IMG/VR virus record: IMGVR_UViG_2529292919_000025
Origin: a virus
Lineage: Duplodnaviria > Heunggongvirae > Uroviricota > Caudoviricetes
DNA length: 43,511 nucleotides
Direction: 5' to 3' (one strand)
This document shows positions 2,403 through 39,951 of the stretch, one piece after another. The notes under the pieces were generated by a model. It did no database searches. It had not been told where the DNA came from and worked only from the letters and a program-made list of their open reading frames with translations. A program made the translations under genes and the position numbers. Position 1 is the first letter of the stretch, and each line of letters opens with the position of its first letter.

Positions 2403-2975
2403 TTACATTTCAGGTTGCGTTATGACAGTCCCAACAGGGTGGTAGCGGTAGATCGTTGACAGTCCAATATCATAGATAATTGCCAGCCGCTTTCTGTCAT
2501 ACCCTTTCTGGAGCAATCTTGCGATCTGCTCATGCTGCTCCTTCGTCAGTTTCGGGCGACGTCCTCCAACTCTCCCTTGTGCTCGCGCAGCAGCCAGTCC
2601 TGCCAGCGTGCGCTCAACTATCAGTTCACGCTCCATTTCTGCCAGTGCACCCATCATATGAAAAAAGAACCTTCCCATCGGAGTGCTGGTATCGATTGAA
2701 TCCGTCAGACTGCGAAAATTGACACCTTTTGCGCGTAGCTCTTCTGTGAGAGCAATGAGGTGTTTCATTCTTCTACCCAACCGATCCAGCTTCCAGACCA
2801 CCAATGTATCCCCTCTTTTAAGGCACTTTAAAGCGCGTTTCAGGCCTGGTCGTTCCGACTTGGTTCCGCTCATTTTGTCCTCAAAAATCTGTTCACATCC
2901 TGCGCACATTAATGCATTGCGTTGCAAATCTGTGTTTTGGTCATTTGCTGACACACGTATGTAGCCAATCAGCAT
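2403..2975 (-). CDS. Serine-recombinase DNA invertase, Hin/Gin/Pin/Cin family
   Basis: 190 aa; N-terminal resolvase/invertase catalytic motif (IGYIRVS...DxQ, GDTLVVWKLDRLGR) and C-terminal HTH; immediately adjacent to tail-fibre cassettes with hix/gix-like sites. Confidence 0.9.
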   Translation of the reverse strand: MLIGYIRVSANDQNTDLQRNALMCAGCEQIFEDKMSGTKSERPGLKRALKCLKRGDTLVVWKLDRLGRRMKHLIALTEELRAKGVNFRSLTDSIDTSTPMGRFFFHMMGALAEMERELIVERTLAGLAAARAQGRVGGRRPKLTKEQHEQIARLLQKGYDRKRLAIIYDIGLSTIYRYHPVGTVITQPEM

Positions 2976-3055: not shown

Positions 3056-3580
3056 GGCTCTGCGTTGCCCGTTGGTGTACCCGTTCCGTGGCCCTCAGCT
3101 ACACCGCCAACGGGCTGGCTGAAATGTAACGGCGCAGCATTTTCTTCTGAAGATTACCCCAAACTGGCACAGGCTTACCCCGCGAATAAATTACCGGATC
3201 TACGGGGTGAATTTATCCGTGGCTGGGATGATGGACGCGGCTTGGATGCTGGGCGTGCCTTGCTAAGTCTTCAGGATGACTCTTTTGAAGCGCACAGGCA
3301 TGAGTCCTTTTTTTATGCGGGTATTTCACGTAATGAAACCCCATTAAAAAATCTTCCAAGTTCAGACGAGATGCTGACTTTAAGTTCCACAACTAATGCC
3401 TTGTCCCCGGACGGTATTGATGCCACCAACTCGTTAATTGGTAATGACGATTACAACTGTCTTATCGAAGGGAATAAAAATAACAAACGAACAGCGACAA
3501 GACTGAGTACCAGTATTGTCGGCACAGCAGAAACACGCCCCCGCAACGTTGCATTCAATTACATCGTAAGAGCCGCATGA
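3047..3580 (+). CDS. Silent tail-fibre C-terminal cassette A (no in-frame ATG; expressed only after inversion)
   Basis: Begins with the shared GEGSALPVGVPVPWPSATPPTGWLKCNGAAFS segment and ends with the shared ETRPRNVAFNYIVRAA; track start is a TTG inside the crossover site. Confidence 0.6.
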   Translation: MGEGSALPVGVPVPWPSATPPTGWLKCNGAAFSSEDYPKLAQAYPANKLPDLRGEFIRGWDDGRGLDAGRALLSLQDDSFEAHRHESFFYAGISRNETPLKNLPSSDEMLTLSSTTNALSPDGIDATNSLIGNDDYNCLIEGNKNNKRTATRLSTSIVGTAETRPRNVAFNYIVRAA

Positions 3581-3599
3581 AAACGTTGGTTTGGGGGAA
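3574..3599. other. hix/gix-like crossover site c
   Basis: CGCATGAAAACG-TT-GGTTTGGGGGAA; exact reverse complement of site b (5135-5160). Confidence 0.6.
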
Positions 3600-4067
3600 G
3601 GCTCTGCACTGCCCGTTGGTGTGCCTGTTCCATGGCCCTCAGCCACACCACCAACGGGCTGGCTGAAATGTAACGGTGCAGCATTTTCTTCTGAAATGTA
3701 CCCCAATCTGGCAAAGGCCTACCCCACCAATAAATTACCGGATTTACGCGGTGAATTTATCCGTGGCTGGGATGATGGGCGAGGAATTGATGCGGCACGC
3801 GCTTTATTGAGCATTCAAAACGGGATGTTGGAAAAACACCGCCATATTGTTGTAGCTAACGATGGATATGACACAAAAGATGAATGGGAGTTGGCTACGA
3901 TTTTCAAAAAAACATATACACAAGGCAGGGGGCTTGATGCCACAAATACAGGAGGGAGTTTGATTCCATCACCAACGCTTCATTCACGAGGAAGTATTGG
4001 TAACACAGGTGGTAGTGAAACCCGCCCCCGCAATATTGCATTTAACTATATCGTGAGGGCGGCTTAG
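3591..4067 (+). CDS. Silent tail-fibre C-terminal cassette B
   Basis: Same conserved N- and C-terminal boundary segments as cassette A, different middle; no ATG start. Confidence 0.6.
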   Translation: MGEGSALPVGVPVPWPSATPPTGWLKCNGAAFSSEMYPNLAKAYPTNKLPDLRGEFIRGWDDGRGIDAARALLSIQNGMLEKHRHIVVANDGYDTKDEWELATIFKKTYTQGRGLDATNTGGSLIPSPTLHSRGSIGNTGGSETRPRNIAFNYIVRAA

Positions 4068-4073
4068 TTATAT

Positions 4074-4685
4074 TCAACTGGCTGCTGCCAGTGGTATTTC
4101 CGGCAAGTTGATATCTGGTACCATGTTTATATCCATTGCGTTCAGCGCGTCTATATAATCCAGCACGGCATTAAGCCGGGTGGTTTCTGCCTGCGTCAAC
4201 TTCCGCCCGGCCTGCAACTTCAACTGAATCAGACTTATGGAAGCCATTGCCGCATCAGCCAGTGACTGGCGCTTGGTTTCTGCCGCTTCTACTGCGGCAC
4301 GATGTTGTGCCTCAGTATCTGTCACCCATTTTTCACCATCCCATTTATCGTATGGTGTTAACGGGGCGATAGTGGTTGTAGTTTTCGGGTAGTCACCCAG
4401 CGCCGTGATTTCTTCGGTGTTTCCCGTGTCAGTGCTATAGACGGTTTCACCACGATGGTCTGGCGCATACTCCCATGAACTTAAATTCTCCGAACGGCGG
4501 ATAGCATAGCCCGCTTTATGTGCGCCCGGGGCATCTAAACAGGAATTTGCCGGAATACCGACACCCACAGCAAGATATTCAGTTGATTCGGAAATATATT
4601 CCCGTGTCTCACCATCATAGTTATAAACGACGATGTTTCCTGCCTGTACGGCAATAAGGTCATCATTTAATATCGCGTTATTCAT
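4074..4685 (-). CDS. Tail-fibre assembly protein (Tfa/U-like chaperone)
   Basis: 203 aa; start ATG overlaps the stop of cassette C (TAATG); typical Tfa-like sequence and position after a tail-fibre C-terminal segment. Confidence 0.75.
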   Translation of the reverse strand: MNNAILNDDLIAVQAGNIVVYNYDGETREYISESTEYLAVGVGIPANSCLDAPGAHKAGYAIRRSENLSSWEYAPDHRGETVYSTDTGNTEEITALGDYPKTTTTIAPLTPYDKWDGEKWVTDTEAQHRAAVEAAETKRQSLADAAMASISLIQLKLQAGRKLTQAETTRLNAVLDYIDALNAMDINMVPDINLPEIPLAAAS

Positions 4686-5143
4686 TATGCGGTTCTCACA
4701 ATATAATTGAAGGCAATATTGCGTGGGCGGTTTTCATTCCCATCTGAGGATTCCGTTCTGTATTGACTGGTAAATCTACCGTTAATTGCACCTTGCCGGA
4801 CGGCGTTATCTGTCGACAACAGACTATCCCCTCTTTTGTCATTTGGCACCAGTACCGTGTTATCCCACGCATCCCATGACCGAATATTATGATAATGACT
4901 TCCTGTTAACCACCCCTGCATGCTTAAGATGCCCCTTCCGGCATCCACCCCGCGCCCATCATCCCAGCCACGGATAAACTCACCGCGTAAATCAGGTAAT
5001 TTTAACGTTGGGTAAACCTTTGCCAGATTTGGGTACATTTCAGAAGAAAATGCTGCACCGTTACATTTCAGCCAGCCCGTTGGTGGTGTGGCTGAGGGCC
5101 ATGGAACAGGCACACCAACGGGCAGTGCAGAGCCTTCCCCCAA
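4685..5143 (-). CDS. Silent tail-fibre C-terminal cassette C (translationally coupled to the assembly gene)
   Basis: Shared N-terminal GEGSALPVG... and C-terminal RPRNIAFNYIVRTA; lies directly downstream of the expressed fibre gene on the same strand. Confidence 0.6.
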   Translation of the reverse strand: MGEGSALPVGVPVPWPSATPPTGWLKCNGAAFSSEMYPNLAKVYPTLKLPDLRGEFIRGWDDGRGVDAGRGILSMQGWLTGSHYHNIRSWDAWDNTVLVPNDKRGDSLLSTDNAVRQGAINGRFTSQYRTESSDGNENRPRNIAFNYIVRTA

Positions 5144-5160: not shown

Positions 5161-6650
5161 GCTCTTACGATGTAATTAAATGCAACGTTGCGAGGGCGAG
5201 TTTCTGTACCTACATTTCCACTAATTTCACCAAACCGTTTTACATTACGAGAGCTAATGGCTCGTAGTGAGGAAGGCACATTAAGACCGGGTTCGTCCGT
5301 TTTAACTATTCCCCCGTCACCGTATGTAGCCAGTATTCCTGGGTTTACTCCTTCCCGTGCACTTCCTGCGGCGAGTCCGTCCCCTGTCCATAATTCCATA
5401 TAGTGTGCATGGTCCAAAATTGTGTGTGGCTGCCAATTAAGCAAAGCGCGACCAGTATCAATCCCGCGACCGTCATCCCAGCCACGAATAAATTCACCGC
5501 GTAAATCAGGCAATTTATTGGTCGGGTAAGCCTTTGCCAGTTCCGGGTATTCTTCAGCAGAAAAAGCCGCACCGTTGCATTTCAGCCACCCCGTTGGCGG
5601 CGTGGCTGAAGGCCATGGAACGGGCACACCAACGGGCAGCGCCGAGCCTTCCCCTAAACCAAGGTAATTGAGGACTTCTTTTATACTGCCCATAGCGATA
5701 ATAGCGCGACCAATAGCTGTAAGGGTTGTCAGTGCTGCGCGGTCTGCTCCGGTAAAATAAGGCAACCGATCTGCTGCAGTGGCAAGTCCTGCCAGAGCAG
5801 TGAGCGTGGCATCTGCCGGTTGTTTTCCGTTTGCCAGATCGTATGCAGCCTTGACCGCTTTCGGTGTGGCGGCCAGTATTTCAGACGTGCTGTTGATGTC
5901 ACTGCTCAATTGTACGGTGCCTTTTGCCGTCAGCGAGGCAGCAGGCACTCCCGTTATCTGACTCCACGGGTGAGTGTGGCTGACGGGCGCCTTGCCGGCT
6001 GCAAGGTCGTATGCAGCCTTGACCGCCTTCGGTGTGGCGGCCAGTATTTCAGATTGACTGTCCGTGGCGCTGCTCAGTTGTACGGTGCCTTTTGCCGTCA
6101 GTGAAGCCGCAGGCACTCCCGTTATCTGACTCCACGGGTGAGTGTGGCTGGCAGGCGCCTTGCCGGCTGCAAGGTCGTATGCAGCCTTGACCGCCTTCGG
6201 CGTGGCAGCCTCAGTTTCTGATTGACTGTCCGTGGCGCTGCTCAGTTGTACGGTGCCTTTTGCCGTCAGCGAGGCAGCAGGCACTCCCGTTATCTGACTC
6301 CACGGGTGAGTATGGCTGACGGGGGCCTTGCCGGCAGCCAGGTCATATGCAGCCTTGACGGCCTTTGGTGTGGCGGCCAGCGTTTCAGAGGTGCTGTTGG
6401 TGGCACTGCTCAGTTGGGTGAACCCCTTAGCTGTCAGTGTCGCGTCCGGGTGGTTACGGGAACGTACGTGTTCAGCCAGTGACTGTGCGGCTTCCTCCGT
6501 TTTTTTCTTCAGCCATTTCGTCCTGTTTGCCAGTTGCCGGGGGGCTCGATTTGATATCCCGTCTGCACCACCCAGAACCGGATCTGATGTCTCCAGTTGA
6601 TAGATATTTTCTTCCCACTTTTCTGTTTCATTCAGGTTTCCCATAATCAA
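5154..6650 (-). CDS. Tail fibre protein (constant N-terminal part fused to currently expressed cassette D)
   Basis: 498 aa; N-terminal tail-fibre anchor region, 56-aa shaft repeats, then ...NYLGLGEGSALPVG crossover segment and a variable C-terminus ending ETRPRNVAFNYIVRAA. Confidence 0.85.
   Translation of the reverse strand: MIMGNLNETEKWEENIYQLETSDPVLGGADGISNRAPRQLANRTKWLKKKTEEAAQSLAEHVRSRNHPDATLTAKGFTQLSSATNSTSETLAATPKAVKAAYDLAAGKAPVSHTHPWSQITGVPAASLTAKGTVQLSSATDSQSETEAATPKAVKAAYDLAAGKAPASHTHPWSQITGVPAASLTAKGTVQLSSATDSQSEILAATPKAVKAAYDLAAGKAPVSHTHPWSQITGVPAASLTAKGTVQLSSDINSTSEILAATPKAVKAAYDLANGKQPADATLTALAGLATAADRLPYFTGADRAALTTLTAIGRAIIAMGSIKEVLNYLGLGEGSALPVGVPVPWPSATPPTGWLKCNGAAFSAEEYPELAKAYPTNKLPDLRGEFIRGWDDGRGIDTGRALLNWQPHTILDHAHYMELWTGDGLAAGSAREGVNPGILATYGDGGIVKTDEPGLNVPSSLRAISSRNVKRFGEISGNVGTETRPRNVAFNYIVRAA
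5649..5674. other. hix/gix-like crossover site a (inside the expressed fibre gene; fibre-constant-side half degenerate)
   Basis: TTCCCCTAAACC-AA-GGTAATTGAGGA; left half matches site b; encodes the LGLGEG junction. Confidence 0.55.
5811..6443. repeat. Tandem ~168-bp coding repeats (about 3.5 copies) in the tail-fibre shaft
   Basis: Protein repeat TAKGTVQLSSATDSQSE..ATPKAVKAAYDLAAGKAP.SHTHPWSQITGVPAASL recurs; accounts for the repetitive antisense ORFs at 5820-6482. Confidence 0.6.
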
Positions 6651-8659: not shown

Positions 8660-8713
8660 GGGGGCAGTATTGCCCCCGTGCGGGAACGCTGATATTAAAG
8701 GCGTTTAAAAAGC

Positions 8714-14989: not shown

Positions 14990-15086
14990 GATTGTGCTCC
15001 TGTGTAAGTTCAGGGCAGTATGTCGGGAGAAGCGCGTGACGGATATTAAAGGAGATTAAGAAGAAGGGGCCGGAGCCCCTGTGATG

Positions 15087-27298: not shown

Positions 27299-28022
27299 AA
27301 CTGCTGCCTCCCCATGTGAGATATCGCGGTGCCAGTTCGCGCAGGATGCGCTGCGGATAATGGCGGTTCTCCCGCCAGCTGGCCGCATTGCGTCCGGCAT
27401 TCACCGTGGCGACATGTCCGAACCAGCGGGTGCTGTCCAGACCTTTCTGTGATGCAAGCCGCCTGTCCCGTTGTACCCAGCCCAGACCACCGTTATAGCC
27501 CGACAGTGTCATGGCCATACGCTCGCAGTCACTGGCGGCGCTGACACGCTGCCACAGCCAGCGGTCATAGCTGACCAGCGCCCGGATAGCCCATGCCGGA
27601 TTAAACGGCTCACGACTGCTCAGCATCGGTATCAACTGGCTTATCCAGTCGGCAGTGGCAGGCATGAACTGCGCCAGTCCCTGAGCGCCAGCCGGCGAGA
27701 TCGCATCAGGTCGCCAGCCGCTTTCCTGATGCAGTTGCGCGGCGAAATCGGCCACCGGCGCAGACAGTCCCCATTCAAGCCGGGCATTACGGATCACATC
27801 ATCGCGATACTGCAGCGCAGCCTGCGGAGGTTGTGCTGCGCATGCCTGGCTGAAAAAGCCGCCACACCAGAGCAACATTGCGACAAAGAATACCCATGCC
27901 ATATGAACCAGAAAGGTCCCGGCGCGGACTGACAGGCGTTCGGTTCTGATGAAGACCCGAAAGGCTTCGAAAGCCAGTTTCAGGGACATGCATACAATCC
28001 AGGTGATCTGCGGCCAGTTCAT
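27282..28022 (-). CDS. Endolysin, lytic transglycosylase (SLT domain) with N-terminal signal-anchor
   Basis: LHQESGW...GAQGLAQFMPATA motif; hydrophobic N-terminus; ATG overlaps stop of upstream membrane protein (TAATCATG). Confidence 0.75.
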   Translation of the reverse strand: MNWPQITWIVCMSLKLAFEAFRVFIRTERLSVRAGTFLVHMAWVFFVAMLLWCGGFFSQACAAQPPQAALQYRDDVIRNARLEWGLSAPVADFAAQLHQESGWRPDAISPAGAQGLAQFMPATADWISQLIPMLSSREPFNPAWAIRALVSYDRWLWQRVSAASDCERMAMTLSGYNGGLGWVQRDRRLASQKGLDSTRWFGHVATVNAGRNAASWRENRHYPQRILRELAPRYLTWGGSSCVASG

Positions 28023-28024
28023 GA

Positions 28025-28376
28025 TTAAAGCCCCATCGCAACAGCCAGGCAGACCGCTGCAACAATCAGTGCACGGCGGATTAACGCAGCAGAAAACACC
28101 AGGTGAAGGCCGGTCTGTACCGGGAAACGCCCTTCAGCCATCAGCCTGTCGTCATGTTTCAGGTACTGACCGGGACGGGCTTTGGGGAAGAGCGAACGGT
28201 CAAGCCAGTAACCCAGCACTGCTGCCAGCGTGATAAGTGCCAGCTTGTAGATCACAACAGGCAATTGCTGTGGCGAGACCAGAGCGATGATGCCCAGCAA
28301 CAGCACTGAGGTCAGCAGCCAGCCGCTGAGGCGAGGTTTTTTAACAGGGGGAATGAATTTTTTCAGGTTTTTCATG
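28025..28376 (-). CDS. Holin-like membrane protein (two predicted TM segments); start trimmed to ATG at 28376
   Basis: ATG at 28376 preceded by GAGGAG; conserved promoter-like motif lies inside the longer track ORF (to 28423). Confidence 0.5.
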
Positions 28377-28505
28377 TGTGTCTCCTCGTTTGGTGGAGAC
28401 AGCATCACAAATACAGGGCGCAAAGGATTTTAAAGCGCGTTAAGAGAGCCGGGGATACGGGATGTGCAGGATAAACGATGAATTATTCACAGAGGAGAAT
28501 ACGAT
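28377..28505. promoter_or_regulatory. Divergent promoter region: late (lysis) promoter candidate and promoter of the P-loop gene
   Basis: TTTAAAATC-N23-CTGTCTCC on the minus strand 18 nt upstream of the holin-like ATG, matching the motif upstream of the protease/scaffold gene. Confidence 0.4.
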
Positions 28506-29234
28506 ATGACGCAGACACTGAATCCGGTCATCACTGTCACCGTGTCCGGTCCTGTGGGCAGCGGTAAAAGTTACATATTGGCGCAGATAGAGGAAGTGGT
28601 GAAACAGGAATTCGGAAACAGCGTCATTGTCGACGCCGCAGACGTGGACGGTGAGCGCCGTATGAGTGGGGATGATCTGAGCACATGGCAGAAACCACGG
28701 GCTGGCACAGTGATCAGGCTGGAGGAATACACGGGACAGGGCCTGTTGTCATACGGCGAGGAGCGTATCTGTCGGACGAATGAGCTGCTGGATGTTATAT
28801 GCCCCACGGGCCGGCAACCCTGGATACTGCCCGATGCACTGCATGCCACCATTGCGGCACTGATGACAGTTTACGATCAGGAGCTGCTCATGAAGGAGTT
28901 ACGTAAACTCACCGGTCAGCCAACAGAATGTTGTTCGTCTCCGAAGTACGGCAAACAGGAACACATCCCGATTAACCAGCCTCCCCGGTTCTTCGACGAA
29001 TACCTTCTGACACCGGAAAATAAAGCTGAGCATGAAGAGATCAAAGCGGCGTTGTTCCGGGAAATCAGGAAGATTGCTGAAATGCAACTGGAGGGCGGGC
29101 TGGACAGAGTGATGGCGAGAGGAGAATGGGAATCGCTGTTTGAAAGAACTTCCCCGGAATTACTTCCCCTCGCACTGGCCATCGGGATTATGCAGACAGC
29201 GGATAAACCTCACTTACGTTCATTAAACACGTAA
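28506..29234 (+). CDS. P-loop NTPase/kinase-like protein, unknown function
   Basis: 242 aa; Walker A GPVGSGKS at residues 15-22, candidate Walker B VIVD; SD GAGGAG 9 nt upstream; on the strand opposite to the late operon. Confidence 0.6.
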   Translation: MTQTLNPVITVTVSGPVGSGKSYILAQIEEVVKQEFGNSVIVDAADVDGERRMSGDDLSTWQKPRAGTVIRLEEYTGQGLLSYGEERICRTNELLDVICPTGRQPWILPDALHATIAALMTVYDQELLMKELRKLTGQPTECCSSPKYGKQEHIPINQPPRFFDEYLLTPENKAEHEEIKAALFREIRKIAEMQLEGGLDRVMARGEWESLFERTSPELLPLALAIGIMQTADKPHLRSLNT

Positions 29235-29614
29235 CTCATAATCCGGGATACGCGTTCAGCGATGACTGCATTTTCACCGGTTTTTACTGCATCCAGAAGT
29301 GACTCTTTAAATGGTGCGGGCCGGGGCTGCAGAAGGGTCGGCGTGGCATTGAGCAGACGGAGCGTTTTTTCCGTGAGGACGACATCAGCCGCTCCCACAG
29401 CCAGCAACTGAGAGTAACGAATATAGCTGTTATCCCGAAGCCATATCAGCGTATCAATAAAATACCGGCACTTTTTCTGGTCGTGATCAACCTGGTCCGG
29501 AATATCGAAAAAACCAGAATAAATCAAAACCTGAGGTGCCGGATGCGTGTTCAGTAATCGGCAGAATATTTTGCCGGTGAGTGCATAAAAATCATCATTT
29601 AAGGAGTGCATCAT
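29210..29614 (-). CDS. Hypothetical protein
   Basis: 134-aa ORF convergent with and overlapping the P-loop gene by 25 nt; no motif recognised. Confidence 0.4.
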   Translation of the reverse strand: MMHSLNDDFYALTGKIFCRLLNTHPAPQVLIYSGFFDIPDQVDHDQKKCRYFIDTLIWLRDNSYIRYSQLLAVGAADVVLTEKTLRLLNATPTLLQPRPAPFKESLLDAVKTGENAVIAERVSRIMSYVFNERK

Positions 29615-29828
29615 GAATCCCCGATTAACGTTAACAGAACATCAGCGCCGTGCTGAAGCAGTGAACAATGTTCTGGAAGATATTATCCGGTTACATCGCG
29701 GAGAACTGAGTGTCTGTCGTGCCGCTTTTCATTTTCAGGGAATACAAAAGCAGTTTGATACTTCTGTTTTTGCAGAAGGTATTACTTATGCCCTGGACCG
29801 GATAAGGTCAGAAAATCGCCCCGGATAA
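29613..29828 (+). CDS. Hypothetical small protein
   Basis: 71 aa; strong SD AAGGAG 6 nt upstream of ATG; followed by a GC-rich hairpin (29885-29912) and then the methyltransferase gene. Confidence 0.5.
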   Translation: MNPRLTLTEHQRRAEAVNNVLEDIIRLHRGELSVCRAAFHFQGIQKQFDTSVFAEGITYALDRIRSENRPG

Positions 29829-30018
29829 TCCCTAAACCACATTAACAGAAATCCCGCCATCCCTGCCGCATCATGAAAGAACGACCAGCCCGGCACCCGA
29901 AAGCCGGGCTGGTCATCGCCCCACAGGAATGCGCTGTGAGCCGACCAAGGTTCAGTCAGTCTCGCGAGACCTGACCAGACTGCCATATTTTTTAATAATT
30001 GTAAAAGGCTTACAGATT

Positions 30019-30783
30019 ATGAAAATGCAGACATTACCCATCGTGCCGTGGATTGGTGGCAAACGCCGCCTTGCAAAACACATTCTGCCGCTGTTTCCGG
30101 CGCATGAATGTTATGTGGAGCCGTTTTGTGGGGCAGCAGCGCTCTATTTTCTTAAGACACCCGGCAAGATCGAAGTCATCAATGATATCAACGGTGAACT
30201 GGTGAATCTGTACCGGGTGGTAAAGCATCACCTGGAAGAATTTGTCCGCCAGTTCAAATGGGCGCTGGTCAGCCGTCAGATCTACAAATGGCTGCAGATC
30301 ACCCCGGAAGAAACACTGACGGATATCCAGCGTGCGGCACGGTTCTACTACCTTCAGAAGCAGGCGTTTGGCGGCAAGGTGGCAGAGCACAGCTTCGGTA
30401 CCTCCACCACATCCCCGCCACGCTTCAACCTGCTGCGTATTGAAGAAGAACTGTCAGCGGCACACCTGCGGCTTTCCAGAACAGTCATAGAACACATGGA
30501 CTGGCAACAGTGCATTGAGCGTTATGATCGTCCGCACACGCTGTTCTACTGCGACCCACCGTACCTGGGTACGGAAGGCTATGGTGTGGATTTTCCTGAA
30601 GGGAACTACTCGCGGCTGGCAGAGCTGGCCCGGTGCATCAGAGGAAAAATGATAATTTCGGTGAACGACATCCCGCAGATGCGCGAGGTGTTCACTGGAC
30701 TGAACATACAGACAGTGAATATCAACTACAGTCTGGCGGGTAAACCCACGCCGCGCCGTGAACTGCTAATCTGCAACTTCTGA
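30019..30783 (+). CDS. Orphan DNA adenine methyltransferase (Dam-like, DPPY motif)
   Basis: N-terminal VPWIGGKRRL, FxGxAA (EPFCGAAA) and catalytic DPPY (FYCDPPYLGTEG); no adjacent restriction endonuclease gene visible. Confidence 0.8.
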   Translation: MKMQTLPIVPWIGGKRRLAKHILPLFPAHECYVEPFCGAAALYFLKTPGKIEVINDINGELVNLYRVVKHHLEEFVRQFKWALVSRQIYKWLQITPEETLTDIQRAARFYYLQKQAFGGKVAEHSFGTSTTSPPRFNLLRIEEELSAAHLRLSRTVIEHMDWQQCIERYDRPHTLFYCDPPYLGTEGYGVDFPEGNYSRLAELARCIRGKMIISVNDIPQMREVFTGLNIQTVNINYSLAGKPTPRRELLICNF

Positions 30784-30790
30784 AACAAAA

Positions 30791-30813
30791 CCGGAAAGCA
30801 CAATGCTTTCCGG
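30791..30813 (-). terminator. Rho-independent terminator candidate downstream of the repressor gene
   Basis: Perfect hairpin CCGGAAAGC-acaat-GCTTTCCGG followed on the minus strand by TTTTGTTTC. Confidence 0.5.
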
Positions 30814-30899
30814 TAAACCAAACAACTTCCACTATGTCACTGGCGATGTTTTCTGAAAGCATCCAGATCAACCACCTGTCCTTTGTGTCCGGGTCAGTA

Positions 30900-31256
30900 T
30901 CAGCCTGCGATTTTTCCTGGTTTTGGCTGAGTATAGAATCGCCCAATCTCAAGAAATGAGCGTTGTTGGTCTGGTGTCATGTCGTCAAAAGTATCTATTA
31001 GTTTTTGTTTTTCTGGGGAAATTTGATTCTGGTTTCTAGTCATACCATCTGTGCTCATTCCAGTGAGCAACCAATTTACATCAACATTAAACTCTTGATG
31101 CATCTTTAACAGAAACTCCCCTCCAGGCATCGCCTTTCCATTTTCAATCTGACTGATACCACCATTAGAAATACCTAAACGAGCTGCAAATTCTCTCTGG
31201 TTCAACCCTGCTTTCTTCCTCACAGAAATAACGCGCTCTCCTATATCTTTGCTCAT
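30900..31256 (-). CDS. Prophage repressor, XRE-family HTH
   Basis: 118 aa; HTH QREFAARLGISNGGISQIENGK; divergent from the Cro-like gene with a palindromic operator between them. Confidence 0.75.
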   Translation of the reverse strand: MSKDIGERVISVRKKAGLNQREFAARLGISNGGISQIENGKAMPGGEFLLKMHQEFNVDVNWLLTGMSTDGMTRNQNQISPEKQKLIDTFDDMTPDQQRSFLEIGRFYTQPKPGKIAG

Positions 31257-31280
31257 AAAAGTGAATCTCTATCTTGATAT

Positions 31281-31296
31281 GCTCATAATTATGAGC
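31281..31296. promoter_or_regulatory. Operator candidate: perfect 16-bp palindrome GCTCATAATTATGAGC
   Basis: Lies in the 93-bp divergent intergenic region; an extra half-site GCTCATAA (31251-31258) overlaps the repressor start codon. Confidence 0.5.
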
Positions 31297-31349
31297 AATA
31301 ATCTAACACATATAAGGCAAACATCATTGCATCAACAAAGGAGACAACG

Positions 31350-31538
31350 ATGACTGCAGAACAAGTCAAAGCTCTCTTCCGCCAGCGCGGGATCACTTTC
31401 ACCCGCTGGGCAGAAGAAAACGGCTACAACCGCAATGAGGTATACCGCGTTCTCAACGGGCAGACCAAAGCCCGTTACGGTAAATCCCATGAAATCGCCG
31501 TGAAGTTGGGACTGAAATCAACAGCTCAGGCGGCCTAA
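31350..31538 (+). CDS. Cro/Ner-position small HTH DNA-binding protein
   Basis: 62 aa, first gene of the rightward early operon, HTH-like ITFTRWAEENGYNRNEVYRVLNG; does not carry the WPxRY signature I associate with Mu Ner. Confidence 0.6.
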   Translation: MTAEQVKALFRQRGITFTRWAEENGYNRNEVYRVLNGQTKARYGKSHEIAVKLGLKSTAQAA

Positions 31539-39148: not shown

Positions 39149-39590
39149 ACAACGTCTTATCCAGCTCATTCATATTGCCCGTAATGAACTGGGTATGGAT
39201 GAAGACACCTACCGCCAGATGTTACAGGGGCTGACCGGTAAAGCCTCAACCAAAGGAATGGATACCACACAACTAAACTGCGTGCTGGAATCCATGAAAA
39301 GGAAAGGCTTTCGCGTTAAGCCTGCCGGAAAAGCCAGCTCAGGTTTACCGCTGGATAACCATCCGCAGTCCAGGAAAATCCGTGCGCTATGGCTTGAAAT
39401 GGCTGCTGCCGGCATTGTTCGTGACCGTTCAGAAAATGCATTAGCGCGGTGGATCAAGCGGGAAACGGGCATCAGCGCCCTGCGCTGGCTCAATACTGAA
39501 CAGGCAAGCAGTGTTATTGAGAAACTGAAGAAGTGGCAGCACAGAGCTGCGGGAGTAAAACATGAGCGACCTGAATCAGTTTCGAAGTAA
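39138..39590 (+). CDS. gemA: GemA-like protein (Mu gp16 family)
   Basis: ATG at 39138 preceded by AAAGGAG; GemA-like sequence and position immediately before Mor. Confidence 0.6.
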   Translation: MMTKQRLIQLIHIARNELGMDEDTYRQMLQGLTGKASTKGMDTTQLNCVLESMKRKGFRVKPAGKASSGLPLDNHPQSRKIRALWLEMAAAGIVRDRSENALARWIKRETGISALRWLNTEQASSVIEKLKKWQHRAAGVKHERPESVSK

Positions 39591-39951
39591 AGGGCCGGAA
39601 CTCCTGGTGGAACTGGCACAGCATACCTCTGAGACCGTTCGCGAGATTATTGATATTGAGCCCGCAATTGCCGACCAGATTGGTCAGGCCGTCGCGAACC
39701 GCATGATGCAGGTCTGGGGCGGGCAAAACGTTTATTTCCCGATGGGCATGGTATGGAAGGTCAGTCAGCGCGACCGGGAAATCTTCAGGGAGTTTAACGG
39801 ACGTAACCACCATGAACTGGCCCGCAAATTTGGTGTTTCGCTTCAGTGGGTCTACAGCGTGGTTAAGCGGGTAAGAAAAGAAGAACTGGATCGGATGCAG
39901 GGCAAGCTATTTGCTGATGAACCCGATGTAGATACGGAGAAAAAAGAGTAA
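39562..39951 (+). CDS. mor: Mor/C-family transcription activator
   Basis: 129 aa with C-terminal HTH ELARKFGVSLQWVYSVVKR; last gene before the prophage end. Confidence 0.7.
   Translation: MSDLNQFRSKGPELLVELAQHTSETVREIIDIEPAIADQIGQAVANRMMQVWGGQNVYFPMGMVWKVSQRDREIFREFNGRNHHELARKFGVSLQWVYSVVKRVRKEELDRMQGKLFADEPDVDTEKKE

What the first reader, a model, noticed from the sequence alone, without database searches (positions are those of the whole stretch)
28377..29912. Central accessory block of the prophage: P-loop NTPase/kinase-like gene plus two small unknown ORFs
Between the lysis genes and the immunity region sit three genes that are not part of any Mu-type module I recognise. One is a 242-aa protein with an N-terminal Walker A (GPVGSGKS), transcribed opposite to the late operon from a shared 129-bp divergent region. 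A 134-aa ORF is convergent with it and overlaps it by 25 nt. A 71-aa ORF has a near-ideal RBS and is followed by a 10-bp-stem GC hairpin (29885-29912). Expression from its own promoter, facing away from late genes, is what one expects of a lysogeny-expressed moron such as superinfection exclusion, defence or anti-defence.
Basis: partly seen in the sequence, partly recalled or inferred. Interest (0 to 1): 0.65.

Follow-up and report, generated by a model that had tools for sequence, protein, structure and literature searches.

The report
Mosaic accessory genes in Mu-like prophage
Three real but uncharacterised genes sit at a swap-prone spot of a Mu-like prophage common in E. coli: one carries a tiny, phage-only P-loop domain fused to shuffled modules and is probably switched on together with the lysis genes, and the other two form a head-to-head gene pair that also occurs in the antiviral hotspot of P2-like prophages.

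Summary
All three ORFs, the Walker A motif, the 25-nt convergent overlap, the strong RBS and the GC hairpin are present. The element is a BcepMu-like transposable prophage, found in about 12% of complete E. coli genomes.

The block is two independent accessory units, not one.

(1) orf242 has an autonomous ~75-aa "mini P-loop" domain. This is a rare, apparently phage-associated family with no Pfam model and no structural neighbour. It is fused to helical modules that are shuffled between relatives. The gene always sits opposite the holin. The shared intergenic region holds a Mor-type dyad with symmetric -10-like hexamers. orf242 is therefore more likely activator-dependent and expressed in the lytic phase than a lysogeny-expressed moron.

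(2) orf134 and orf71 form an AT-richer head-to-head cassette whose start codons overlap in CATG. The same architecture occurs in P2-like prophages at the tin/old hotspot, in one case next to a type VI retron.

The hairpin fits better as a terminator for leftward transcription. No known defence, anti-defence, toxin-antitoxin or morphogenesis family matches. Function is inferred only.

The "P-loop NTPase/kinase, own lysogenic promoter" reading is not. Interest is moderate.

The parts
28380..28400 (-). Holin leader hairpin (GUCUCC...GGAGAC) that pairs the holin Shine-Dalgarno sequence. Context element.
   Evidence: -14.2 kcal/mol, z -3.4. Conserved in 10 diverged loci; Serratia carries a different pairing (CTCCAT...ATGGAG) at the same place.
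28401..28406 (-). -10-like hexamer GATGCT of the late (holin) promoter, 23 nt from the dyad.
   Evidence: Same spacing as AATACT and CATACT at the dyads at 8695 and 15046.
28430..28443 (.). Mor-type dyad TTAAAGCGCGTTAA. Can also be read as 5-bp inverted repeats around a G/C-rich hexamer. Shared by both divergent promoters.
   Evidence: 5 matches in the window against 0.76 expected.. A Mor-family gene lies at 39562-39951. Mu Mor site architecture from PMC4390567.
28467..28472 (+). -10-like hexamer CAGGAT of the rightward promoter serving orf242. Puts the dyad centre at about -42.5.
   Evidence: hexamer CA(G/T/A)(G/A)AT sits 23 nt from the dyad in the loci counted by hand (24 nt in DLI.5a), while the spacer sequence varies.
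28506..29234 (+). orf242: mini P-loop N-domain (residues 1-76) plus shuffled modules M (about 77-136), C1 (137-180) and C2 (181-242).
28506..28733 (+). Autonomous ~75-aa mini P-loop domain. Walker A GPVGSGKS is at 28548-28571. Conserved E74 ends the last hydrophobic stretch.
   Evidence: G20 and K21 invariant; G15, G18, I28, P64, E74 at 90% or more. AF2 pLDDT 87.4. No structural neighbour; one 82-aa phage relative.
29210..29614 (-). orf134: the conserved larger protein of the head-to-head cassette. A winged-helix-like sequence pattern is my reading only.
29612..29615 (.). CATG: overlapping divergent start codons of orf134 and orf71.
   Evidence: Same CATG in at least 30 loci, including P2-like phages.
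29613..29828 (+). orf71: the small partner of the cassette. Its RBS TAAGGAG at 29600-29606 lies inside orf134 codons 3-5.
29883..29914 (-). 12-bp GC hairpin, most likely an intrinsic terminator or insulator for leftward transcription. It sits in the dam leader.
   Evidence: more stable on the - strand. The Serratia counterpart has a U-run only on the equivalent strand. Compensatory C-G to T-A change in DLI.5a.
30019..30783 (+). dam (D12-class adenine methylase): the next rightward gene downstream of the cargo. Context.
   Evidence: In DLI.5a the rightward promoter is followed directly by the hairpin and dam.

Best explanation
The interval between the lysis cassette and the immunity region of this BcepMu-like prophage is a cargo site. 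It holds two unrelated accessory units.

Unit 1, orf242. It is the first gene of a rightward transcription unit that starts at a bidirectional promoter shared with the holin/late operon. The promoter appears to depend on the phage's single Mor-family activator. orf242 would therefore be made during lytic development, possibly on the same transcript as orf71 and dam, much as Mu's C-dependent Pmom drives a DNA-modification operon. The protein is a ~75-aa autonomous mini P-loop domain with a Walker A motif and a conserved terminal acidic residue. It probably binds a nucleotide or phosphate. This domain is fused to short helical modules that are swapped and reordered between relatives. I infer a lytic-phase conflict factor (counter-defence or host takeover), in which the conserved domain supplies ligand binding or docking and the variable modules supply target specificity.

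Unit 2, orf134/orf71. It is a horizontally acquired, AT-richer, self-contained head-to-head cassette with overlapping start codons. Each gene's ribosome-binding site, and presumably its promoter, lies inside the other gene. The two 5' ends would then be mutually antisense and could act as a toggle. The cassette also occupies the tin/old antiviral hotspot of P2-like prophages. It is most likely lysogen-side cargo: a candidate defence or exclusion module, or a regulatory switch.

The hairpin at 29883-29914 and the holin RBS hairpin insulate the lysis genes from leftward read-through.

Shown: gene reality, mosaicism, domain boundaries, motif geometry, synteny. Inferred: timing of expression, ligand binding, biological role.
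For: Identity and mosaicism:
- 98.5% identical to Bcepmuvirus PhiKM.
- The interval differs among relatives.

orf242:
- An exhaustive HMMER search found 57 hits among 1.84 billion representatives. Almost all share only residues 1-76, either alone (74-90 aa) or fused to different C-termini.
- Module M lies at the C-terminus in P0051 and P0053. Module C2 stands alone as the 89-aa Serratia ORF.
- The gene sits in the same place opposite the holin in E. coli, Salmonella and Citrobacter genomes and in two further viral contigs, L052 and L053.
- It is present at 620 of 693 prophage copies in E. coli.

Promoter:
- No sigma-70 site was found in the 130-bp region.
- Dyads lie at 28430, 8695 and 15046. 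On the late strand each is followed, after 23 nt, by GATGCT, AATACT or CATACT.
- On the + strand a hexamer lies 23 nt from the 28430 dyad. This spacing holds in the diverged loci I counted, 24 nt in DLI.5a.
- A Mor-family gene is present (1.3e-43).
- In Mu, Mor binds 5-bp inverted repeats around a G/C-rich hexamer, centred at -43.5, at a promoter with a -10 but no -35 element (PMC4390567; C-dependent late promoters including Pmom, PMC2582627 abstract).

Cassette:
- GC is 44-47%.
- 31%-identical homologues occur in P2-like phages with the same CATG head-to-head partner, in one case next to a type VI retron (RT_VI 5e-104).
- E. coli variants exist that lack orf134 but keep orf242 and orf71.

Hairpin strand preference.
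Against: - There are no transcript or transcription-start data. CAGGAT matches the -10 consensus at only 3 of 6 positions.
- dam has its own promoter-like site at 29971-29999, so the rightward promoter need not serve dam.
- The counter-defence role is pure inference. There is no hit to any known anti-defence or defence family.
- The N-domain model shows no beta-strands by DSSP and matches nothing in the PDB. Even nucleotide binding is unproven.
- Some relatives have GKN instead of GKS/T.
- No promoter was found for orf134. Its within-E. coli pN/pS is about 1.1 on only 14 variant codons, and it is deleted in some copies. It may be under weak selection.
Confidence: 0.45

Rival explanations
1. 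The whole block is a lysogeny-expressed moron in which the P-loop protein is an NTPase or kinase acting in superinfection exclusion, defence or abortive infection, with the two small ORFs as helpers.
For: - The location is a variable hotspot next to the immunity region.
- The orf134/orf71 cassette recurs in the P2 tin/old hotspot beside a retron.
- A KwaA-like gene lies at the same junction in DLI.5a.
- The Walker A motif is invariant.
Against: - No sigma-70 promoter was found for orf242. The Mor-type geometry suggests lytic-phase control.
- The P-loop domain is only ~75 aa, below every NTPase family cut-off, with no fold match.
- No PADLOC model matches any of the three proteins.
- orf242 and the cassette occur independently of each other.
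Confidence: 0.22
2. orf242 is a quasi-core lytic function of enterobacterial BcepMu-like phages. Examples would be a lysis-timing or holin regulator, or a partner of the Dam methylase. On this view it is not conflict cargo.
For: - Present at about 89% of copies in E. coli.
- Positional conservation across genera, opposite the holin and upstream of dam.
- Predicted co-regulation with the late operon.
Against: - Absent from about 11% of copies, from phage KP12 and from BcepMu itself.
- In Serratia only the C2 module is present.
- The C-terminal modules are shuffled, which is unlike a housekeeping partner.
- EBJ003-type prophages have the gene but no dam downstream.
Confidence: 0.15
3. orf134/orf71 is an addiction-type pair, similar to a toxin-antitoxin system or a regulator with its target. 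It would stabilise the prophage rather than act against other phages.
For: - A compact two-gene unit with a conserved larger protein and a non-homologous small partner.
- Horizontal mobility between phage lineages.
- The mutually antisense 5' ends could give bistable expression (inference).
Against: - The head-to-head orientation is unlike type II toxin-antitoxin operons.
- No toxin or antitoxin family hit was found in Pfam, NCBIfam or PADLOC.
- orf134 is cleanly deleted in some prophages that keep orf71. This argues against an indispensable antitoxin role for orf134.
Confidence: 0.12
4. The ORFs, especially orf134 and orf71, are non-functional remnants or gene-calling artefacts of recombination at a hotspot.
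For: - Weak purifying selection within E. coli: pN/pS is 1.14 for orf134 and 0.62 for orf71, on few sites.
- PhiKM's annotators did not call orf134.
Against: - Both reading frames are kept open with in-frame indels at 30-52% protein identity in Serratia. orf134 homologues at about 31% identity persist in P2-like phages.
- The CATG start arrangement is conserved in at least 30 loci.
- Strong RBSs are present.
- Each protein belongs to a PHROG family.
Confidence: 0.05

Closest known systems
Mu Mor/C-dependent middle and late promoters, especially Pmom driving com-mom
   Same: - A dimer-type dyad of 5-bp inverted repeats around a G/C-rich spacer, centred about 43 bp upstream.
- A recognisable -10-like hexamer and no -35 element.
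- A Mor-family gene at the end of the early operon.
- The rightward unit leads toward a DNA methylase, as Pmom leads to a DNA-modification gene.
   Different: - A single dyad here appears to serve two divergent promoters symmetrically.
- This phage has one Mor/C-family gene rather than two.
- The methylase is a Dam-type enzyme, not Mom.
- There is no Com-like zinc-finger protein.
- Activation by Mor is untested.
P-loop NTPases, including the Walker A segment of ABC ATPases, and minimal designed P-loop proteins (PDB 6c2u, 9jix)
   Same: - A hydrophobic stretch, then GxxGxGK[ST], then a helix.
- Profile matches to the Walker A region of ABC nucleotide-binding domains.
- Profile matches to designed phosphate-loop proteins.
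   Different: - The domain ends after about 75 residues.
- It has no Q-loop, signature motif, canonical Walker B or H-loop.
- Pfam ABC_tran scores 17-19 bits against a cut-off of 25, covering about the first third of the model (profile positions 5-56 of 137).
- RefSeq's name 'ABC transporter ATPase' for truncated variants is not justified.
Cargo of the tin/old antiviral hotspot of P2-like prophages (hotspot concept from my own knowledge of the P2/P4 literature)
   Same: - orf134 homologues, each with a CATG head-to-head small partner, lie near the cos-proximal genome end in phage Midge, downstream of gpA and a dinI-like gene.
- In Klebsiella phage ST147-VIM1phi7.1 they lie beside a type VI retron.
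   Different: - Here the cassette is inserted in a BcepMu-like phage, between a late promoter and dam.
- No defence phenotype has been shown for it anywhere that I could find.
- The small partners are not detectably homologous.
Classical phage morons, i.e. an autonomous promoter-gene-terminator insert with atypical GC (concept from my own knowledge)
   Same: - Atypical, lower GC for orf134/orf71.
- Presence or absence polymorphism.
- A stem-loop at the border.
   Different: - No autonomous sigma-70 promoter was detected.
- The stem-loop is oriented for the other strand.
- orf242 appears to be wired into the phage's own activator circuit.

Membership tests
P-loop NTPase (generic) | Walker A motif GxxxxGK[ST] after a beta-strand | tested here: met
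   GPVGSGKS at residues 15-22. G20 and K21 are invariant across 28 diverse relatives. Three relatives have GKN instead.
P-loop NTPase (generic) | Walker B motif (hhhhD/E) on a strand of the core sheet | tested here: inconclusive
   A conserved E74 ends a hydrophobic stretch (VIRLEE or IFKLEE). Its placement relative to the P-loop cannot be verified. The AF2 model has no DSSP strands.
P-loop NTPase (generic) | Complete alpha/beta core of at least five strands, recognisable by family profile or by fold | tested here: not met
   - The conserved domain is about 75 aa.
- All Pfam and NCBIfam NTPase hits are below cut-off.
ABC transporter ATPase (RefSeq name of truncated variants) | Q-loop, LSGGQ signature, Walker B and H-loop in addition to Walker A | tested here: not met
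   Matches cover only the Walker A segment: profile positions 5-56 of 137, 17-19 bits against a cut-off of 25. PDB profile matches have per-domain E-values of about 1.
Known anti-phage defence systems (PADLOC v2) | Significant match of a component protein to a system model | tested here: not met
   The best hit for orf242 is 16 bits (Csx3, E 1e-3, Walker A only). orf134, orf71 and their P2-like counterparts have none.
Mor/C-dependent promoter | Dyad-symmetric activator site centred near -43.5, a -10 hexamer present, a -35 hexamer absent, and a Mor/C-family gene in the phage | tested here: met
   The geometry gives a centre at about -42.5, assuming the hexamer occupies -12 to -7. Reference architecture from PMC4390567.
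Mor/C-dependent promoter | Transcription requires the activator | not testable with these tools
   This needs reporter fusions or in vitro transcription with and without the Mor homologue.
Phage moron | Own promoter and own terminator flanking the insert; atypical base composition | tested here: inconclusive
   GC is atypical for orf134/orf71 only. No promoter was detected. The hairpin favours the opposite strand.
DUF2513 (source-given name of the Serratia homologue of orf134) | Match to the Pfam DUF2513 model | tested here: not met
   orf134, P0030 and the P2-like homologues have no DUF2513 hit, even at E up to 5.
Type II toxin-antitoxin module | Co-directional two-gene operon with recognisable toxin and antitoxin families | tested here: not met
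   The genes are divergent with overlapping starts. There are no toxin or antitoxin family hits.
T7 gp5.5/5.7-like (suggested by the annotators of phage Midge for the orf134 homologue) | Profile similarity to T7 gp5.5 or gp5.7 | tested here: not met
   hhalign probability is 0.1% and 1.0%, using shallow profiles.

The most novel reading that the evidence does not exclude
The ~75-aa mini P-loop domain defines a new class of phage conflict proteins. In this reading it is a stand-alone nucleotide-binding or Walker-A-mimicking unit made late in infection. It would dock onto and poison host ATPases of the ABC/SMC/RecN type, including defence ATPases, or sequester a nucleotide signal. The shuffled C-terminal modules would set target specificity. 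Separately, the CATG head-to-head orf134/small-partner cassette would be a new two-gene, antisense-toggled defence or exclusion system shared by Mu-like and P2-like prophages.
Probability: 0.12. Interest if true: 0.8.

Novelty: new variant of a known kind. Interest (0 to 1): 0.45.

Why it matters
This prophage is present in about one in nine complete E. coli genomes, many of them from human isolates. Its cargo genes are therefore widespread, yet they are unnamed.

The analysis yields three testable leads:
1. A very small, apparently phage-associated P-loop domain with no structural relatives. It could show how little of a P-loop protein is enough for a biological role.
2. A head-to-head two-gene cassette that moves between the hotspots of unrelated temperate phages. 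It is a candidate for a new defence or switch module.
3. A compact bidirectional, activator-dependent promoter, together with an RBS-sequestering hairpin that would keep lysis genes silent under read-through transcription.

The work also corrects a misleading database name ("ABC transporter ATPase").

Tried and rejected
- **Family libraries.** Pfam, NCBIfam, PADLOC and PHROGs scans of all three proteins gave only unknown-function PHROGs.
- **PDB sequence searches.** Profile searches for both families gave only Walker A matches for orf242 and nothing for orf134.
- **Full-length structure.** The AF2 model of orf242 was too poor to use (pLDDT 43).
- **Rfam.** Nothing in 28000-31400.
- **DUF2513.** The name attached to the Serratia homologue was not reproduced. 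The only paper mentioning DUF2513 is irrelevant.
- **T7 gp5.5/5.7.** The similarity claimed in phage Midge's annotation was not reproduced.
- **Small partners.** Homology between orf71 and the P2-like 63-aa partner was not detected.
- **Literature.** Searches for the protein accessions or PHROG ids found nothing. Searches on BcepMu or Mu-like prophages in E. coli gave no functional data on these genes.
- **Distant N-domain loci.** The Nostoc locus and the 116-258 kb phage contigs gave no informative neighbours. The Woeseiaceae hit was a spurious full-size ExeA-like ATPase.
- **Promoter for orf134.** None found.
- **DNA-mimic idea for orf242.** It is only mildly acidic (pI 5.0), so the idea has no real support.
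Full report
**1. The observation**

PGAP annotates all three as hypothetical proteins in a 99.8% identical E. coli chromosome.

- The Walker A motif GPVGSGKS is residues 15-22 of orf242.
- The 25-nt convergent overlap is at 29210-29234.
- The RBS TAAGGAG lies 6 nt before the orf71 start codon.
- The GC hairpin is a perfect 12-bp stem at 29883-29914.
- With the holin start at ATG 28375, the divergent intergenic region is 130 bp.

**2. Identity of the element**

The region is 98.5% identical to Escherichia phage PhiKM, classified in Bcepmuvirus. It occurs in 633 of 5426 complete E. coli genomes.

The neighbours are:
- a Holin_2-3 holin, an SLT endolysin and a spanin, running leftward;
- a D12-class Dam methylase, an HTH repressor, a Ner-like protein and the transposase, to the right.

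The early operon ends with Gam, GemA and a single Mor-family activator at 39562-39951.

**3. The interval is a cargo site**

The content between the holin and the repressor differs among relatives:
- Nothing before dam in strain DLI.5a, which carries a KwaA-like gene on the repressor side.
- A DUF2441 protein in strain 503829 and in Klebsiella phage KP12.
- A truncated P-loop gene plus other genes in EBJ003.
- Further sets in Salmonella diarizonae and Citrobacter braakii.
- BcepMu itself has three unrelated genes there.

In complete E. coli genomes the holin is found at 693 places, the P-loop N-domain at 620, and the orf134/orf71 segment at 529. The block is therefore accessory, not a morphogenesis component.

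**4. orf242**

- Word-indexed searching found only E. coli relatives, including 182-aa and 141-aa deletion forms.
- The exhaustive HMMER search found 57 proteins among 1.84 billion representatives. Almost all share only residues 1-76. They occur either as stand-alone proteins of 74-90 aa or fused to unrelated C-termini of up to 364 aa.
- Across 28 diverse members G20 and K21 are invariant. G15, G18, I28, P64 and E74 are conserved in at least 90%.
- Module M (about 85-135) sits at the C-terminus of other members. Module C2 (about 177-228) exists alone as the 89-aa ORF at the same position in Serratia. The protein is a mosaic.
- The domain is not a conventional NTPase. Every Pfam and NCBIfam NTPase hit is below cut-off and limited to the Walker A segment. 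PDB profile hits are to the Walker A stretch of ABC domains and to designed minimal phosphate-loop proteins.
- More distant members lie in viral contigs of 15-258 kb, five of them over 100 kb, and in a Nostoc genome region that looked phage-like to me.
- RefSeq's name "ABC transporter ATPase" for the truncated variants is unjustified.

**5. Regulation of orf242**

No sigma-70-type promoter is detected in the intergenic region. I aligned that region from ten diverged loci. Four conserved features stand out:
- a dyad, TTAAAGnnCTTTAA, at 28430-28443 in the window;
- on the holin strand, the hexamer GATGCT 23 nt from the dyad;
- on the orf242 strand, the hexamer CA(G/T/A)(G/A)AT, also 23 nt from the dyad (24 nt in DLI.5a), although the spacer sequence varies;
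- a hairpin around the holin Shine-Dalgarno sequence.

The dyad pattern occurs five times in the window against 0.76 expected. Two further copies lie in intergenic gaps of the late region, at 8695 and 15046. On the late strand these are followed after exactly 23 nt by AATACT and CATACT.

This is the architecture described for Mu. Mor binds as a dimer to 5-bp inverted repeats around a G/C-rich hexamer, centred at -43.5, at a promoter with a -10 but no -35 element (PMC4390567). The C-dependent late promoters, including Pmom, are built alike (PMC2582627 abstract).

I conclude, by inference, that one Mor-type site serves two divergent promoters. orf242 would then be expressed in the lytic phase. 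In DLI.5a the rightward promoter is followed directly by the hairpin and dam, so the cargo lies in the dam leader.

Caveats:
- There are no transcription-start data.
- CAGGAT is a weak -10 element.
- dam also has its own promoter-like site.

**6. The hairpin**

The hairpin is more stable on the minus strand (-36.3 against -30.6 kcal/mol). Its Serratia counterpart has a mismatch that becomes a G-U pair on the strand equivalent to the window's minus strand, and a U-run on that strand only. DLI.5a shows a compensatory C-G to T-A change in the stem. It therefore fits a terminator or insulator for leftward transcription better than a terminator for orf71.

**7. The orf134/orf71 cassette**

- In Serratia BcepMu-like prophages the same arrangement is kept at 52% (orf134) and about 30% (orf71) protein identity. 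That includes the convergent 3' overlap and the back-to-back starts.
- tblastn found 31%-identical, full-length orf134 homologues of 143 aa in the P2-like phages Midge and ST147-VIM1phi7.1, and in Salmonella phage FSL SP-004, whose context I did not inspect.
- In the two loci inspected, the homologue is paired head to head with a 63-64-aa ORF whose start overlaps in CATG.
- An automatic scan found this CATG arrangement in at least 30 loci.
- In Midge the cassette lies near the cos-proximal end of the genome, downstream of gpA and a dinI-like gene, which I take to be the tin/old position. In ST147-VIM1phi7.1 it is adjacent to a type VI retron (RT_VI 5e-104, HTH_VI 4e-31).
- The cassette is AT-richer than the phage: 44-47% GC against 54-58%.
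- Some E. coli prophages have lost orf134 but keep orf242 and orf71.
- The small partners of the two lineages are not detectably homologous.
- No family, toxin-antitoxin, defence or solved-structure match exists. The T7 gp5.5/5.7 similarity noted by Midge's annotators was not reproduced.
- I found no promoter for orf134. Within-E. coli polymorphism shows little purifying selection.

I regard it as a self-contained, horizontally mobile hotspot cassette. Its mutually antisense 5' ends could act as a toggle. Its role (defence or exclusion, regulatory switch, or addiction) is open.

**8. Verdict**

The block is accessory, hotspot-borne and of unknown function. It is two units rather than one. The "NTPase/kinase" is a novel mini P-loop domain that fails the tests for an NTPase family. 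orf242 is more likely wired into the late activator circuit than expressed from a lysogenic promoter.

Function remains inferred. I favour a lytic-phase conflict factor for orf242 and lysogen-side cargo for the cassette, with an overall confidence of about 0.45. The novelty level is a new variant of a known kind, namely prophage hotspot cargo. Interest is moderate (0.45). The main value is as a set of well-defined experimental leads.

Noticed in passing
window 28380-28406: The holin Shine-Dalgarno sequence is paired in a conserved hairpin (GUCUCC...GGAGAC). The predicted late -10 hexamer abuts the 5' arm of that hairpin. A transcript started at the late promoter (about 28394) would therefore lack that arm and be translatable. 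Leftward read-through RNA would carry the full hairpin and keep the holin untranslated. This resembles the fold-back inhibition known for IS10 (my own knowledge).
   Followed up: partly
window 8695-8708 and 15046-15059: Two more copies of the Mor-type dyad lie in intergenic gaps of the late (tail) region. On the late strand each is followed after 23 nt by AATACT or CATACT. They are probably late promoters. At 8695 the hexamer sits in the loop of a GGGGGC/GCCCCC stem just before the ATG.
   Followed up: partly
window 29560-29575: A 16-bp near-palindrome, GGCAGAATATTTTGCC, lies inside orf134 (codons for GKIFC). It is 40-55 bp upstream of the orf71 start and is identical in Serratia despite 52% protein identity. 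It may be an operator or promoter element, or simply reflect protein constraint.
   Followed up: partly
window 29971-29999: A promoter-like site directly upstream of dam: CTGACC-17-AATAAT here, and a perfect TATAAT in strain DLI.5a. Dam may also be made independently of the Mor-type promoter.
   Followed up: no
L005 (E. coli DLI.5a) 3572-5023; L006 and L003: Alternative cargo at the same junction in relatives: a 401-aa protein with a weak KwaA (Kiwa) match next to a nucleoid-associated protein, and DUF2441 proteins in strain 503829 and phage KP12. In those two loci a short + strand ORF (MTEPKQ...) starts at the position where orf242 starts here.
   Followed up: partly
L004 (E. coli EBJ003) 5207-5683 and proteins P0016-P0018: RefSeq names the truncated 141- and 158-aa variants of the orf242 family 'ABC transporter ATPase'. 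Only the Walker A segment supports this name.
   Followed up: yes
L054-L062 (viral contigs of 15-258 kb): Distant members of the mini P-loop family occur in viral contigs, several of them over 100 kb. In the loci listed they usually lie where a + strand gene run meets minus-strand ORFs that I did not identify. L061 is an exception.
   Followed up: no
window 2403-2975: A Gin/Hin-type serine invertase (Pfam Resolvase 9e-50) lies near the tail-fibre end of the prophage. This suggests an invertible host-range segment as in Mu. One dyad-pattern match (2818) falls inside this gene and is probably chance.
   Followed up: no
L065 (Klebsiella phage ST147-VIM1phi7.1) 3556-4792: A type VI retron (RT_VI plus HTH_VI) lies immediately beside the orf134-like cassette in a P2-like phage.
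   Followed up: yes
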